A DNA stretch of 64,000 nucleotides from Escherichia coli O157:H7 (GTDB lineage Bacteria; Pseudomonadota; Gammaproteobacteria; Enterobacterales; Enterobacteriaceae), in the NCBI RefSeq assembly GCF_013167455.1, contig NZ_CP038328.1. The stretch is one strand, 5' to 3'. The position numbers are program-made. Positions 13,001 to 19,000 of the stretch are shown piece by piece. How positions within the stretch are numbered: the first letter of the stretch is position 1; every line of letters begins with the position of its first letter.

Positions 13001-16000
13001 CGTTCATCCCAGGTTTTACGCGCGGTGGCGATTAAGTCAGCTTTATTCAGCCGCGGCCAGACGTGCTCCTGGGTGGTTTGCTGAAAATCGTCGAACTTTA
13101 ATTTCACCCCCTGGCGAGCAATCAGTAAATCAGGTTTTACCTTTGCCAGACGGCGTTCAAGTTCCGGATACAGCCGCTCGATAATCGCTTCACATTCAGA
13201 CCAGTGATGAATATCTTCCGCCATCGTGCGTTCCACGCCGACGGATTTTCGTAACCGTTCGCTGTTAACGTCGCGCTCGTCAATCCCCTGACTACGCTCC
13301 CACAAAATGCGGCCAAATTTGCCAAAGCGTTTAAGCAGAATCACCAGATCACACTTTTGTACATCACCGCAGGTCCGCAGCCCCATCGCTTCCAGCTTTG
13401 CCGCTGAGACTTTGCCAACACCGGGAATTTTTGCCAGCGGTAAGGTTTGCAGAAATGCCGAAACTTCTGCCGGCGTAATCACAAACTGGCCGTTGGGTTT
13501 ATTCATGTCGGAGGCGATTTTGGCGAGAAACTTTACTGGTGCCACGCCCGCAGACGCCGTCAGTTGCAGCTCGCTGAAAATTGTCTGGCGGATTTCCTGG
13601 GCGATGAGGGTCGCAGAACCGTGGCAATGGACGCTATCAGTGACATCGAGGTAGGCTTCATCCAGTGACAACGGTTCAATACGCGAGGTGTAGCGCGAGA
13701 AGATTTCACGGATATGATTTGAGGCTTCTTTGTAGGCGTCAAAGCGCCCCGGAAGCAAGGTGAGATGTGGGCATAATTTGAGCGCCATCCCTGTCGGCAT
13801 AGCGCTGCGTACGCCAAATTTACGCGCGGGATAATTGGCGGTGCTGATCACCCCCCGACGTTCGCGGCTGCCGCCAATAGCAATAGGGATATCGCGCAGG
13901 GCGGGATTGTCGCGCATCTCCACTGCGGCGAAAAAGCAGTCCATATCCACATGAATGATTTTACGCATTACTCACCTCTCAACACTGGTAAAGTATACAG
14001 TGATTTCAGGGTTTGAGAAATGCGTAAAGATTCAGCATTTAGCGCGTTCGCTGCGAAAGCACCTGCTGCTTATCCAGCTTTTGCACCAGCGGCTGCACCA
14101 CTTTATCCCCATGCTGACCAAAGTATTGATACAGCGTATCGGACGCACTTTTGGTCAGCACCATAATCTCAATGCGTCGGTTGCCCGCGCTTTGCGGATT
14201 TTTCGCGTCCAGCAGCATCTGGTCCGCCATTGCGCTTACCTGCATCACTTTATCTTCCGGCATTCCGGCCTCTTCCAGCACCCGACGAGCTGAAAGCGCG
14301 CGATCGCCCGAAAGGTTCCAGTTGTTGTAGATATTGTTTTTGTAGGCCATCGCATCGGTATGCCCGGTAATAATAATTTTGTTATCGAGCGAGTCGAACA
14401 CTGGCGCGAGCTCCACCAGCAAAGTTTTAAAGAACGGCATAATCTGCGCGCTGCCGCGTTCGAACATATTGCGATTCTGGTCGTCTTTAATCAGCACGCG
14501 TAATCCCTGCGGGACAATCTCCATCTCCAGATTCGCTTCCATATGCGCATCACGGGCAATGGTGTTGATACTGGTTGCCAGCTCGCCAAGCTCGGTGGCG
14601 GATTTCTTCTTCAGCAGCGCCGTTTTCTCATTCACATCACGCGCTTTTTTCTCCGTCTCTTCCGGCACCGCCACGGTGGCAGGTTTTGGCGGATGAGACG
14701 GGCTGATTTTATTTAACGGCGACAGCCCACCACCGTTAAAAATCGACTGCCCGTGCAGCGCGGCGATAATGCTTTCACGCTCGGATTTACTGACGCTGTT
14801 GACAATCAACTTTATCGTCGTCACCAAAGGGGCCGAGCGTATTTCCGAGGTTTCTGCCCGCTTTACCCTGGATGCGATGCCCGGCAAACAGATGGCGATT
14901 GACGCCGATCTTAACGCCGGATTGATCAACCAGGCACAGGCGCAAACCCGGCGTAAAGATGTTGCCAGCGAGGCCGATTTCTACGGCGCGATGGACGGGG
15001 CATCGAAGTTTGTGCGCGGGGATGCCATCGCCGGGATGATGATTCTGGCGATTAACCTGATCGGCGGCGTCTGTATCGGGATATTTAAATACAACCTGAG
15101 CGCCGACGCCGCCTTCCAGCAATATGTGCTGATGACCATCGGCGATGGGCTGGTGGCGCAGATCCCTTCCCTCCTGCTCTCCACCGCAGCGGCGATTATC
15201 GTCACCCGCGTCAGCGACAACGGCGATATCGCCCATGACGTGCGCCACCAGCTGCTGGCAAGCCCGTCGGTGCTCTACACCGCCACCGGGATTATGTTTG
15301 TGCTGGCGGTGGTGCCGGGAATGCCGCACCTGCCGTTTTTGCTGTTCAGCGCCCTGCTGGGTTTTACCGGCTGGCGGATGAGCAAACAGCCGCAGGCGGC
15401 GGAGGCGGAAGAGAAAAGCCTCGAAACGCTGACCCGCACCATCACTGAAACCAGCGAGCAACAGGTCAGTTGGGAAACCATTCCGCTTATCGAGCCTATC
15501 AGTTTAAGCCTCGGCTACAAGCTGGTGGCGCTGGTCGATAAAGCGCAGGGCAACCCGCTCACCCAGCGTATTCGCGGCGTACGGCAGGTGATATCCGACG
15601 GTAACGGCGTGCTGCTGCCGGAGATCCGCATTCGGGAAAACTTCCGCCTCAAGCCCAGCCAGTACGCCATTTTCATCAACGGCATTAAGGCCGATGAAGC
15701 GGATATTCCGGCGGATAAACTGATGGCGCTGCCCTCCAGCGAAACCTACGGCGAGATTGACGGCGTGCTGGGGAACGACCCGGCGTACGGGATGCCGGTG
15801 ACCTGGATCCAGCCCGCGCAGAAGGCGAAGGCGCTGAATATGGGGTATCAGGTGATCGACAGCGCCAGCGTGATTGCCACGCATGTGAACAAGATTGTGC
15901 GCAGCTATATTCCTGATTTGTTTAATTATGATGACATCACGCAGCTGCATAACCGCCTGTCGTCGATGGCCCCGCGCCTGGCGGAAGATTTGAGCGCGGC

Positions 16001-19000
16001 GCTGAATTACAGCCAGTTGCTGAAAGTGTACCGTGCGCTGCTGACCGAAGGCGTTTCCCTGCGCGATATCGTCACCATCGCCACCGTGCTGGTCGCCAGT
16101 AGCGCGGTGACTAAAGATCATATTCTGCTGGCGGCCGATGTGCGCCTGGCGCTGCGGCGCAGCATTACCCATCCGTTCGTTCGCAAGCAGGAGCTGACGG
16201 TGTATACGCTGAATAATGAGCTGGAAAATCTGCTGACTAACGTAGTGAATCAGGCGCAACAGGGCGGTAAAGTGATGCTCGACAGCGTGCCAGTGGACCC
16301 GAATATGCTCAACCAGTTCCAGAGCACGATGCCGCAGGTGAAAGAGCAGATGAAAGCGGCGGGGAAAGACCCGGTGCTGCTGGTGCCGCCGCAGCTGCGC
16401 CCTTTGCTGGCGCGCTATGCAAGGTTGTTTGCGCCGGGGCTGCATGTGCTGTCGTATAACGAAGTGCCGGATGAGCTGGAGTTGAAGATAATGGGGGCGT
16501 TGAGTTGATTGGCCTTTAAGGGGCGCATCCGGCATTGGTGCACAATTGCCGGATGCGGCGTGAACGCCTTATCCGGCCTACGGTTGAGTGCAGTTTTGTA
16601 GGCATGATAAGACGCGCCAGCGTCGCATCAGGCATCCGGCACCAGCGCACAATTATGAAATGATACGCTCCCCGGCACTAAAATCCGTTATGTCTCCCGC
16701 CCAATCAATGGGATATAACCCTCGCGCCACATCGCGATGGAACGTTGAGAATGGCCAATCACTCACTTGCTTTACCCAGCCATGTTTTACTGGATTTATA
16801 TAAATATAATCAACATGATGGCGATAGTCTTTGGTATTGCGGATGGTGTGCTCCTAAAAACGTGGTTGCCAGATATTTTTCAATCCACAAGCATGGGTGA
16901 ACTGCTTTTTAATCTCCCGCCAGCGGGAGGAAAAATCATCATCGCTTTCGGGTAATGTCCATATGCAATGCATATGCTCCGGCAAAACGACCCAGGCGTT
17001 AATTTCAAAAGGTCTGTCTCGCTTAACGTTAATAATGGCGTTACGGAGCATCTGGAACTGAGCGGTCAGAAGGTGGCTTCGACGATTTCGTAGGTTAACC
17101 GTGAAAAACCAGGTTCCCCCTTTGATGTAATACCGACGATATTCAGACATGGCAACTCCTTTTTCTCAACGGTAAGAAGAAAAGGAAAGGTCGGCAATGA
17201 GGTGATGGAATAACGGGAAAGCGGCTCGCAAAAACGCACAGATTTGTAGGCATGATAAGACGCGTCAGCGTCGTATCAGGCATCTGCGCACAACTGCCGG
17301 ATGCGGCGTGAATGCCTTATCCGTCCTACAAAATCGTCTCTTCCGTCAAAATCCGGCGCGCGCCTAAAAAGTGATCCTGCCAGAAAGGTTCAGCTAACCG
17401 ACTTACCCGAATGGTTTCCCCGGTGCGCGGTGACTCAATAAACTGACCGTCGCCCAGATACACCCCCATATGGTCGGCAATCTCGCGGCTGTGGATATGG
17501 AAAAACAGCAAATCTCCCCGGCGCAGGTCGTTATTCGCCACAATCGTTGCCCGATGGTAGTGATACATCTCATTAGCCGTACGCGGGAGCTTCGCCTCGA
17601 GGATCTTGTTGTAGGCATAAAAAACCAACCCGCTACAGTCAAAGCCTTTATCAGGCCGCGTGCCGCCCCAGACGTAAGGCTTGCCAAGCTGCTGCTCCAG
17701 GCGGTGAATCGCCACTTCGGTAATGTTATGCAGATGGTCGCTGCTTAAAAAGTGGTTGTTTTCCGCCAGCGCCTGCCAGCGTCTGTCACTCGCCTTGAGC
17801 GGTGCAGGAAACCATTCTGGATGCTGTTTTATCTGTTCGCGGTTGTGCTGGCGTAGCGCCCTTCTGCTTTCGGCATTGCCTTCCACAATATAGCTGACCA
17901 GCTTTTTCAGATGGGTTTGGTACTGTTTTAATAAACGCGCACGGTTTTGCATCCGCTGGCGGGCGGCGTAGCTGAAAGAGATATGTGATGTGGTGGCGCT
18001 GGCAAATGAAGAAAACGGCAAACAAATCAACAGTAATCCCGACAATACAAAGGATGGAATCGACGGCAAGGACATACTCAATAATGGCTGGTCATGCATT
18101 GATGTTACAGTGTATCCCGGCCCGTACCTGAACAAACTTAATAAACCATTATTATAAAATTAATAAATATATTTCAGTTAATTATGTAAAAACATCCGTT
18201 TATTAAATTACTCATAGATTGTCGCTGTTGCTCATTTGAGCTACAATTCAAGCTGAATAAATATACAGCATAGGAGATATCCCAATGGCTGCTAACGCAT
18301 TTGTTCGCGCCCGAATCGATGAAGATCTGAAGAATCAGGCGGCGGACGTACTGGCCGGGATGGGGCTGACCATCTCTGACCTGGTTCGCATAACCCTCAC
18401 AAAGGTCGCGCGTGAAAAGGCATTGCCGTTTGATTTACGCGAGCCTAATCAATTAACCATTCAATCAATCAAAAACAGCGAAGCTGGCGTTGATGTTCAT
18501 AAGGCCAAAGACGCCGATGATTTATTTGATAAATTAGGAGTTTAAATATGATTCAAAGGGATATTGAACTCGGGACAATTTTCAAAGGATGTAAAACTTG
18601 CACAAAAGCGTCATAAGGATATGAATAAATTGAAATATCTTATGACGCTTCTTATCAATAATACTTTACCGCTTCCAGCTGTTTATAAAGACCACCCGCT
18701 GCAAGGTTCATGGAAAGGTTATCGCGATGCTCATGTCGAACCGGACTGGATCCTGATTTACAAACTTACCGATAAACTTTTACGATTTGAGAGAACTGGA
18801 ACTCACGCGGCGCTCTTTGGGTAAAGCCCGCTGCCGATGAAATTTGTAAACCCTGCGCCGACAGGCTTGCGTAAAACTCTTTTGGTGATAATGTGAGCCT
18901 TCCCAATCCAGACTATTCCGATTTGGGATCCATTTTGCCGTCCTGGCGTGTGTAACCGTTTTATCAAGGAATAAGCAGTATGCGTAAAATCGCATTAATT

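What the first reader, a model, noticed from the sequence alone, without database searches (positions are those of the whole stretch)
14039..16508. Flag-2 lateral flagellar locus reduced to overlapping lfhA and lafU fragments
The FlhA-like ORF lacks its N-terminal membrane domain and the MotB-like ORF begins antisense within it (overlap 14769-14929). This matches the deletion scar described for K-12-type genomes and places this strain in that lineage despite its intact-looking T6SS island.
Basis: partly seen in the sequence, partly recalled or inferred. Interest (0 to 1): 0.3.

Follow-up and report, generated by a model that had tools for sequence, protein, structure and literature searches.

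The report
Known Flag-2 lateral-flagella deletion scar
This is the well-known scar left when E. coli lost its second (lateral) flagellar gene cluster. It is ordinary and says nothing about K-12 ancestry, because three quarters of E. coli carry it, but the same breakpoint also turns up in several other genera, which is odd.

Summary
Window 14039-16508 carries a MotB-like lafU remnant (minus strand) and an FlhA-like lfhA remnant (plus strand), joined back to back. Aligned to an intact Flag-2 cluster (E. coli ST540), the junction is at 14805-14807 (ATC), inside an imperfect 12-nt direct repeat, and 35,316 bp are missing. LfhA loses residues 1-130/131, which is TM1-3 and most of TM4 but not the whole membrane domain. 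LafU loses residues 1-52, which is its only TM helix. The 14769-14929 "overlap" is each ORF reading through the junction into the other's antisense, not a real gene overlap.

The window is O157:H7-type. It is 100% identical to O157 genomes here and 94.6% identical to K-12. The same junction is contiguous in 4085 of 5426 complete E. coli genomes, so it places no strain in a K-12 lineage.

The scar is already published (Ren 2005, as cited by De Maayer 2020).

One result goes further. The junction falls at the same nucleotide position in E. albertii, Kluyvera, Citrobacter, Atlantibacter and a Dryocola-like genome, each with genus-specific flanks. The remnants show dN/dS of about 0.03-0.1 and open frames. 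That rules out one old, neutrally decaying scar and suggests a recurrent precise deletion.

The parts
14039..14807 (-). lafU' (mbhA): the true LafU-derived remnant, codons 53-307 plus the stop codon. It keeps the OmpA-like peptidoglycan-binding domain. It lacks the N-terminal 52 residues, including the single TM helix (VAFADFTLAMMALFMTLWI) and its Asp39.
   Evidence: blastn to intact ST540 lafU (L004 10693-11461), 95.7-96.7% identity, ending at window 14807-14810. Base-level alignment. Pfam: OmpA only, MotB_plug lost. Hydropathy scan.
14796..14807 (.). The retained (lafU-version) copy of an imperfect 12-nt direct repeat, CTGTTGACAATC. The lfhA copy in intact strains is CTGATGATCATC (9/12 match). 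The crossover is at its 3' end.
   Evidence: The two blastn alignments overlap at exactly 14796-14807.
14805..14807 (.). Deletion junction. The ATC is shared by both parental sequences (3-nt microhomology; effectively AT in genera where lfhA has ATT). Bases removed: 35,316 relative to ST540, 35,035 relative to O111:H8 02-3334, 38,214 relative to A42.
14805..16508 (+). lfhA' (fhiA): the LfhA/FlhA-derived remnant, codons 131/132-697 plus the stop codon. It keeps the tail of TM4, the FHIPEP cytoplasmic loop, TM5-8, the linker and the cytoplasmic domain. It lacks residues 1-130.
   Evidence: blastn to ST540 lfhA (L004 46766-48473), 95.6% identity. Pfam FHIPEP positions 99-656 of 657. RefSeq pseudogene 'missing N-terminus'. 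Hydropathy scan.
14808..14929 (-). Non-native 5' extension of the lafU ORF. It is the antisense of lfhA' codons (..APLVTTIKL). It contains the GTG at 14824-14822 that RefSeq uses as the lafU start and the TTG at 14929-14927 that the mechanical ORF uses.
   Evidence: The same chimeric N-terminus (V/M)TTIKL|IVNSVSK is seen in database proteins.
14769..14804 (+). Non-native 5' extension of the lfhA ORF (MLSRSDLLTLLT). It is the antisense of lafU' codons, and the ATG at 14769 arises by chance from it.
12913..13968 (-). Context: dinB (DNA polymerase IV), immediately downstream of lafU' on the same strand. The 70-nt spacer 13969-14038 holds promoter-like hexamers.
16653..17150 (-). Context: rayT (REP-associated tyrosine transposase), a pseudogene here with an internal stop, flanked by short interspersed repeats. 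It marks the outer boundary on the lfhA side, as in intact strains.

Best explanation
Window 14039-16508 is the K-12-type Flag-2 deletion scar in an O157:H7-type chromosome. About 35 kb, the roughly 40 lateral-flagellar genes that lie between lafU and lfhA in Flag-2-positive strains, was removed by one breakage-and-joining event. Its endpoints lie inside lafU (after codon 52) and inside lfhA (after codon 130/131).

The join sits at a 3-nt ATC microhomology at the 3' end of an imperfect 12-nt direct repeat. That fits illegitimate, microhomology-guided recombination or a replication template switch (inferred).

The two remnants are most likely non-functional:
- LafU' has lost its only TM helix and the proton-binding Asp, so its OmpA-like domain cannot reach the periplasm (inferred).
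- LfhA' has lost TM1-3.
- Neither has a native start codon or promoter. The apparent 161-nt overlap is each frame reading on into the other's antisense strand.

The strain therefore cannot build lateral flagella. dinB and its upstream spacer are untouched.
For: - ORFs and domains.
- Identity to O157 and RefSeq annotation (lafU; FlhA pseudogene 'missing N-terminus').
- Intact reference cluster ST540, with lafU...lfhA flanked by the same dinB and rayT/yafL.
- Endpoints and microhomology.
- No other Flag-2 DNA in the window.
- Junction identical in K-12 and six other diverse E. coli.
- Junction contiguous in 4085 of 5426 genomes.
- Literature: De Maayer 2020 (PMC6993521) and Archer 2011 (PMC3032704) describe the fhiA/mbhA remnants and cite Ren 2005.
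- Start codons are non-native (GTG at 14824, ATG at 14769), with no obvious Shine-Dalgarno sequence in the 20 nt upstream.
- In other genera the gene callers pick different starts for the remnants (MKL.., MTTIKL.., an internal GTG), so no conserved start.
Against: The remnants do not look like old pseudogenes.
- All 8 E. coli scar alleles examined keep both frames open.
- dN/dS is 0.027-0.028 at dS 0.13-0.21, the same as in intact alleles.
- Private substitutions in scar alleles are N13:S61.

This could mean selection on the truncated proteins, although recent or recurrent origin explains it too. A Keio delta-mbhA mutant scored as ciprofloxacin-sensitive (PMC13131330), but that may be a polar effect on dinB. 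No expression data were examined.
Confidence: 0.93

Rival explanations
1. Recurrent hot-spot deletion. The lafU/lfhA junction is not one historical accident. It is a nucleotide-precise deletion that has happened independently many times, at least once per genus and possibly repeatedly within E. coli, because the endpoint sequences are fixed by conserved codons. The O157 scar is one product of this process.
For: - The junction is at the same position in E. albertii, Kluyvera ascorbata, Citrobacter, three Atlantibacter lineages and a Dryocola-like genome. Each has genus-specific wobble bases 3-6 nt from the junction on both sides, which excludes import of a junction-spanning patch across genera.
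- Synonymous divergence between genera is saturated (dS 0.9-1.5), yet dN/dS is 0.03-0.13 and lfhA' is an open 1701-nt frame in 14 of 15 scars. The scars are therefore young relative to genus divergence.
- Scar and intact alleles of the same species are nearly identical in the flanks: E. coli Res13 vs ST540 (0 differences in 1701 nt, 2 in 2102 nt), K. ascorbata (98.6%), A. subterranea (98.9%).
- E. coli scar and intact haplotypes are interleaved, with no fixed difference within +/-300 nt.
- De Maayer 2020 notes that the truncated copies occur mainly in taxa that also have complete loci.
- The scar always keeps the full lafU version of the imperfect repeat followed by lfhA sequence. Where lfhA has ATT, the scar has ATT. 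Both fit a template-switch model.
- The E. coli lafU endpoint sits in the loop of a 9-bp-stem DNA hairpin (dG -10.5 kcal/mol, z -3.8, 0 of 200 shuffles fold as well).
Against: - Exact homology of 2-3 nt (8-9 of 12 imperfect) across 35 kb is a very weak substrate for a hot spot.
- No recombinase is annotated in the cluster.
- The hairpin is weaker in Kluyvera, and the lfhA endpoint has no significant structure.
- Within E. coli, spread of a single scar by homologous recombination with breakpoints 48-67 nt from the junction cannot be excluded.
- No alternative crossover within the repeat (for example at CTG) was seen, which is unexpected for simple slippage.
Confidence: 0.6
2. Ancient scar kept alive. 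The deletion happened once, before Escherichia, Citrobacter, Kluyvera and Atlantibacter diverged. Since then the remnants have been preserved, either because truncated LfhA' and LafU' have a function, or because they are continually overwritten by recombination from co-existing intact alleles.
For: - One event explains the identical junction in all genera most simply.
- Low dN/dS and open frames hold across saturated dS, including between two Atlantibacter species (lfhA' dS 1.26, dN/dS 0.026).
- A. hermannii appears to be scar-only in the protein database.
- The number of LafU' protein variants per residue is only about 1.3 times that of DinB (a rough measure).
Against: - It requires both scar and intact alleles to persist through several genus-level splits.
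- No conserved start codon or promoter is evident.
- LafU' has no route to the periplasm.
- lfhA' is frameshifted in E. albertii.
- The A. hermannii branch carries about three times more nonsynonymous change than its sister lineage (derived), which suggests relaxed constraint once intact alleles are gone.
- The remnants are absent from taxa without Flag-2, such as Salmonella (De Maayer Table 1).
- Intact A. subterraneus LfhA exists (P0132).
Confidence: 0.2
3. The two ORFs are a genuine pair of overlapping, divergently transcribed genes, as some overlapping-gene catalogues treat fhiA and mbhA.
For: The mechanical ORFs overlap by 161 nt. BPhyOG lists the pair <fhiA, mbhA> as a conserved overlapping-gene pair in E. 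coli and Shigella (PMC1940028).
Against: Alignment to intact clusters shows that each ORF's overlapping portion is the antisense of the other gene, created by the deletion. In intact strains the two genes lie 35 kb apart.
Confidence: 0.03

Closest known systems
fhiA-mbhA (lfhA'-lafU') Flag-2 deletion scar of E. coli K-12 (Ren, Beatson, Parkhill & Pallen 2005, J Bacteriol 187:1430, as cited in PMC6993521 and PMC3032704)
   Same: Same two remnants, same neighbours (dinB-yafNOP on one side, rayT-yafL on the other) and an identical junction sequence ...GACGCTGTTGACAATCAACTTTAT....
   Different: The allelic background differs. The O157 window is 94.6% identical to K-12 over 13000-17500 and differs at 81 of 1701 nt in lfhA'. 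rayT and yafQ are pseudogenes here but intact in K-12.
Intact Flag-2 lateral flagellar cluster (E. coli 042, W, ST540, O111:H8; homologous to the Vibrio parahaemolyticus and Aeromonas laf systems)
   Same: lafU' and lfhA' are the terminal genes of that cluster, at 95-97% nucleotide identity to ST540.
   Different: All the genes in between, lafT(motA) through lfhB, are absent: about 35 kb and 41 annotated CDS in ST540. Both terminal genes are 5'-truncated.
FlhA / FHIPEP export-gate family (PF00771) and the MotB/OmpA-like stator family (PF13677 + PF00691)
   Same: Strong homology: FHIPEP E=3e-189, OmpA E=1e-14.
   Different: FHIPEP profile positions 1-98 are missing, and the MotB_plug/TM domain is missing. 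Both are elements needed for membrane assembly and proton conduction (established knowledge of FlhA and MotB).
Short-repeat, palindrome-associated spontaneous deletions (for example the lacI deletion hot spots; Glickman & Ripley 1984, recalled from my own knowledge, not checked here)
   Same: The endpoints lie at an imperfect direct repeat, and one endpoint sits in a hairpin loop.
   Different: The span is 35 kb rather than under 1 kb. Exact homology is only 2-3 nt. The recurrence across genera is inferred, not observed experimentally.

Membership tests
K-12-type Flag-2 deletion scar (fhiA/mbhA) | A 3' fragment of lafU next to dinB, on the same strand as dinB | tested here: met
   lafU' at 14039-14807(-) and dinB at 12913-13968(-). 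95.7-96.7% identical to ST540 lafU.
K-12-type Flag-2 deletion scar (fhiA/mbhA) | A 3' fragment of lfhA pointing away from lafU, next to rayT/yafL | tested here: met
   lfhA' at 14805-16508(+), rayT at 16653-17150, yafL at 17326-18075. Intact strains show the same outer neighbours.
K-12-type Flag-2 deletion scar (fhiA/mbhA) | Junction sequence identical to that of K-12 | tested here: met
   123-nt alignment around the junction: O157 and K-12 differ at one synonymous site, at +9.
K-12-type Flag-2 deletion scar (fhiA/mbhA) | All internal Flag-2 genes absent | tested here: met
   blastn of L004 10693-48478 against the whole window finds only the two remnants plus short repeats of 91 nt or less.
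   The junction is present in 4085 of 5426 complete genomes. The window is 100% identical to O157:H7 and 94.6% to K-12. The scar also occurs in E. albertii and other genera.
Functional FlhA-type export gate (FHIPEP, PF00771) | Complete N-terminal eight-helix membrane domain plus the cytoplasmic domain | tested here: not met
   Profile positions 1-98 and residues 1-130 are missing. The hydrophobic window at 21-39 is lost and the one at 118-136 is cut.
Functional MotB-type stator subunit | N-terminal TM helix with the conserved Asp, plus the plug (PF13677), plus the OmpA-like domain | tested here: not met
   PF13677 is detected in full-length LafU (E=4.5e-15) but not in the remnant. The TM window 35-53, including D39, is deleted.
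Expressed overlapping gene pair | Native start codons and promoters for both ORFs | tested here: inconclusive
   The starts are non-native. Only weak 9/12 promoter-like matches were found, including one at 14743-14770(+). No expression data were available.

The most novel reading that the evidence does not exclude
The lafU/lfhA breakpoint is a nucleotide-precise deletion that has arisen independently in at least five enterobacterial genera (Escherichia, Citrobacter, Kluyvera, Atlantibacter and a Dryocola-like genome), and perhaps repeatedly within E. coli. On this reading, loss of lateral flagella is a sequence-programmed, recurrent event rather than a single ancestral accident. The less likely alternative is that it is one ancient scar whose truncated genes are kept under purifying selection. 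I could not read Ren 2005, so part of this may already be published.
Probability: 0.5. Interest if true: 0.45.

Novelty: already known. Interest (0 to 1): 0.2.

Why it matters
For this window it matters little. It confirms that an O157:H7-type strain, like most E. coli, cannot make lateral flagella. It also corrects two easy misreadings: that the scar is a K-12 marker, and that the two ORFs are genuinely overlapping genes.

The wider point concerns recurrent versus ancient origin. If the identical junction in several genera reflects recurrent precise deletion, Flag-2 loss would be a natural example of a long-range (35 kb) deletion hot spot that could be studied in the laboratory. It would also explain why Flag-2 is so patchy across Enterobacteriaceae. 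If instead the remnants are under selection, two textbook K-12 'pseudogenes' would need re-annotation.

Tried and rejected
- Reading Ren et al. 2005 (PMC545627): the paper is not held, so its description of the scar is taken second-hand from PMC6993521 and PMC3032704.
Only two close relatives came back, C. werkmanii (intact) and E. albertii (scar).
- 'One ancient deletion followed by neutral decay' is rejected. Remnant dN/dS is about 0.03 at dS 0.13-0.21 within E. coli and dS over 1 between genera, with open frames.
- 'Cross-genus spread of the scar by homologous recombination' is rejected, because genus-specific wobble bases lie 3-6 nt from the junction on both sides.
- 'Atlantibacter has only scars, so the remnants must be selected' is weakened. 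Full-length LfhA from A. subterraneus exists (P0132, L108) and is 98.9% identical to a scar allele of the same species.
- Cluster-size comparison as a proxy for amino-acid variability: the clusters merge neighbouring genes (YafO with YafP, LafU with MotA), so the measure is too rough to decide.
- A hairpin at both endpoints as the mechanism: only the E. coli lafU endpoint folds significantly, so this remains a lead.
- The private-substitution N/S test: 13 sequences are too few to separate post-deletion mutations from unsampled older haplotypes.

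
Full report
OBSERVATION

Pfam assigns the plus ORF to FHIPEP/FlhA (E=3e-189), but only to profile positions 99-656 of 657. The minus ORF has an OmpA domain only. Full-length LafU from an intact strain also has MotB_plug.

Region 13000-17500 is 100% identical to several E. coli O157:H7 chromosomes and 94.6% identical to K-12 MG1655. From position 1755 onward, the first 50 kb of the window are 99.96% identical to O157 strain FDAARGOS_293. RefSeq annotates lafU at 14039-14824 and an FlhA pseudogene ('missing N-terminus') at 14790-16508. The neighbours are dinB-yafNOP on one side and rayT-yafL-dinJ on the other.

E. coli ST540 carries an intact Flag-2 cluster between the same neighbours: lafU at L004 10693-11616 (minus strand) through flhA/lfhA at 46385-48478 (plus strand).

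- blastn aligns window 13000-14807 to L004 9654-11461, and window 14796-16636 to L004 46766-48591.
- Base by base, lafU homology ends at 14807 and lfhA homology begins at 14805. The shared ATC lies at the 3' end of an imperfect 12-nt direct repeat, CTGTTGACAATC in lafU and CTGATGATCATC in lfhA.
- The deleted span is 35,316 bp relative to ST540, 35,035 bp relative to O111:H8 02-3334 and 38,214 bp relative to A42. These clusters carry different cargo.
- Nothing else from the cluster is in the window apart from short interspersed repeats.

WHAT IS LOST FROM EACH PROTEIN

LfhA (697 aa) loses residues 1-130/131. The break falls inside the hydrophobic segment 118-136 (..VGFVVFIILMI|INFIVV..). TM1-3 and most of TM4 are gone, but the FHIPEP loop, the later hydrophobic segments (205-311) and the whole cytoplasmic domain remain. 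'Lacks its N-terminal membrane domain' therefore overstates the loss.

LafU (307 aa) loses residues 1-52. That includes its only TM helix (35-53) and Asp39, the counterpart of the proton-binding Asp of MotB (family knowledge).

The 161-nt ORF overlap is not a native feature:
- 14808-14929 of the minus ORF is the antisense of lfhA codons. It supplies RefSeq's GTG start at 14824.
- 14769-14804 of the plus ORF is the antisense of lafU codons. It supplies a chance ATG.

LINEAGE CLAIM

A 201-nt query centred on the junction is contiguous, in one ungapped piece, in 4085 of 5426 complete E. coli genomes. Nearly all the rest match it in two separate places, which indicates an intact or partly intact cluster. 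De Maayer et al. 2020 report the same pattern: all 76 of 100 E. coli strains that lack Flag-2 have the truncated copies, and the paper attributes the description of the scar and its direct repeats to Ren et al. 2005 (PMC6993521). Archer et al. 2011 state that K-12 and B retain only fhiA and mbhA (PMC3032704).

The scar is therefore the majority state of the species, not a K-12 marker, and this window is O157:H7-type. The island is also not fully intact: tssA is split into two frames in the window, and tssA and tssM are flagged as frameshifted in the near-identical reference strain.

MECHANISM AND FUNCTION

Shown: one deletion joins lafU codon 53 to lfhA codon 131/132 at a 2-3-nt microhomology within an imperfect repeat.

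Inferred:
- The event was illegitimate recombination or a template switch.
- The remnants are inactive, because each lacks its membrane-anchoring N-terminus, a native start and a promoter.
- Only weak promoter-like matches occur.
- A Keio delta-mbhA strain scored as ciprofloxacin-sensitive (PMC13131330). Because mbhA lies directly upstream of dinB, a polar effect is the simplest reading (inference).

AN UNEXPECTED EXTRA

The remnants do not behave like old pseudogenes.

Within E. coli:
- Across 8 scar alleles, both frames are open. dS is 0.13 (lafU') and 0.21 (lfhA'), with dN/dS of 0.028 and 0.027. These values match intact alleles and are close to dinB (0.016).
- Scar and intact haplotypes are interleaved. 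Res13 (scar) differs from ST540 (intact) at 0 of 1701 nt in lfhA' and at 2 of 2102 nt on the lafU/dinB side. ET979 (scar) differs from O111:H8 (intact) at 9 nt.
- No site within +/-300 nt is fixed between the two classes.
- Private substitutions are N13:S61 in scar alleles and N4:S30 in intact alleles.

Beyond E. coli:
- The E. albertii type strain has the same junction on a background about 90% identical. Its lfhA' is frameshifted.
- Database LafU proteins that lack MotB_plug come from Citrobacter gillenii, C. amalonaticus, Kluyvera ascorbata, Kluyvera sp., Atlantibacter hermannii, Atlantibacter sp. and a Dryocola-like genome. All begin with the same chimeric peptide, (V/M)TTIKL|IVNSVSK.
- The DNA confirms a junction at the same nucleotide position in each. 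Genus-specific synonymous differences lie 3-6 nt away on both sides, and where that genus's lfhA has ATT the scar has ATT.
- Between genera dS is saturated (0.9-1.5), while dN/dS is 0.03-0.13. lfhA' is an uninterrupted 1701-nt frame in every scar except E. albertii.
- Same-species intact and scar pairs are nearly identical in the flanks in K. ascorbata (98.6%) and A. subterranea (98.9%).

What this rules out and leaves open:
- A single old scar decaying neutrally is ruled out.
- Cross-genus spread of the scar by homologous recombination is ruled out.
- Independent, nucleotide-precise recurrence is what I favour, at about 0.6. It agrees with De Maayer's remark that the truncated copies occur mainly where intact loci still exist.
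- One ancient event whose remnants are either selected or continually refreshed from intact alleles remains possible, at about 0.2.

Against selection:
- There is no conserved start codon.
- E. albertii has the frameshift.
- The apparently scar-only A. hermannii branch shows a roughly three-fold excess of nonsynonymous change (derived).
- A full-length A. subterraneus LfhA exists.

A possible mechanistic lead: the E. coli lafU endpoint lies in the loop of a 9-bp-stem DNA hairpin (dG -10.5 kcal/mol, z -3.8). The hairpin is weaker in Kluyvera, and the lfhA endpoint is unstructured. Within E. coli, spread of one scar by recombination with breakpoints 48-67 nt from the junction cannot be excluded.

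VERDICT

The finding is real and correctly identified as the Flag-2 scar. It is already known and ordinary for E. coli. The lineage inference is wrong, and the overlap and 'membrane domain' statements need correcting. The cross-genus identity of the junction and the absence of decay are worth a dedicated survey, but they were not part of the finding. They may also be partly anticipated in Ren 2005, which I could not read.

Noticed in passing
Loci L020, L098, L102, L104, L105, L107, L109 (scars) and L100, L103, L106, L108, L018 (intact): The lafU'/lfhA' junction is at the same nucleotide position in E. albertii, Kluyvera, Citrobacter, Atlantibacter (three lineages) and a Dryocola-like genome, each with genus-specific flanks. 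The remnants have dN/dS of 0.03-0.13 at saturated dS, and the frames are open in 14 of 15 scars. This suggests either a recurrent precise deletion or selected remnants.
   Followed up: partly
window 54881-56358 and 56426-59929: The T6SS island is not fully intact. tssA is split into two overlapping frames (54881-55567 and 55564-56358). RefSeq flags tssA and tssM as frameshifted in a 99.96%-identical O157 strain.
   Followed up: partly
window 16653-17150 (-): rayT (REP-associated tyrosine transposase, yafM) carries an internal stop in this O157 background, but is intact in K-12 and ST540.
   Followed up: no
window 16524-16650, 17246-17333, 20514-20556: Short interspersed repeats (35-90 nt, 85-100% identical), probably REP/BIME elements. 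They flank rayT and also occur in several intergenic gaps inside the intact Flag-2 cluster of ST540 (L004 at about 16.97, 22.76, 25.96, 27.99, 34.94 and 42.0 kb).
   Followed up: no
window 18548-18824 (+): yafQ, the toxin gene of the dinJ-yafQ toxin-antitoxin pair, is frameshifted here, while the dinJ antitoxin gene is intact.
   Followed up: no
window 10663-11386 (-): prfH and rtcB are reduced to adjacent fragments, another internal deletion scar. O111:H8 and A42 carry full-length prfH and rtcB at the same place (L016, L017).
   Followed up: no
window 12568-12565 region (yafN-yafO) versus L006-L009 and L016: The yafNO toxin-antitoxin pair between dinB and yafP is present in O157, K-12, ST540 and A42. 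It is absent in several other E. coli (L73, MDR_56, PapM-32-1, RM9872, O111:H8), where yafP directly abuts dinB.
   Followed up: no
window 1-1754, 25383-30100 and 27201-38262: An IS1203 copy and a truncated integrase lie next to tRNA-Thr at the window start. ISEc26/ISAs1 transposases and several truncated Rhs core fragments lie upstream of the full Rhs-VgrG-Hcp module. The window differs from strain FDAARGOS_293 only in its first 1.75 kb and by a 30-nt indel near 31.3 kb.
   Followed up: no
L004 13706-14767, L016 21779-23155, L004 18463-19305: The 'intact' E. coli Flag-2 clusters themselves carry pseudogenes: fliK and a wHTH regulator with internal stops in ST540, and flgK with an internal stop in O111:H8. 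The system seems to be decaying even where the cluster is present.
   Followed up: no
L017 28306-31020: The Flag-2 cluster of strain A42 carries a cargo type II restriction-modification pair (a cytosine methyltransferase and an endonuclease) inserted between flgA and flgM.
   Followed up: no
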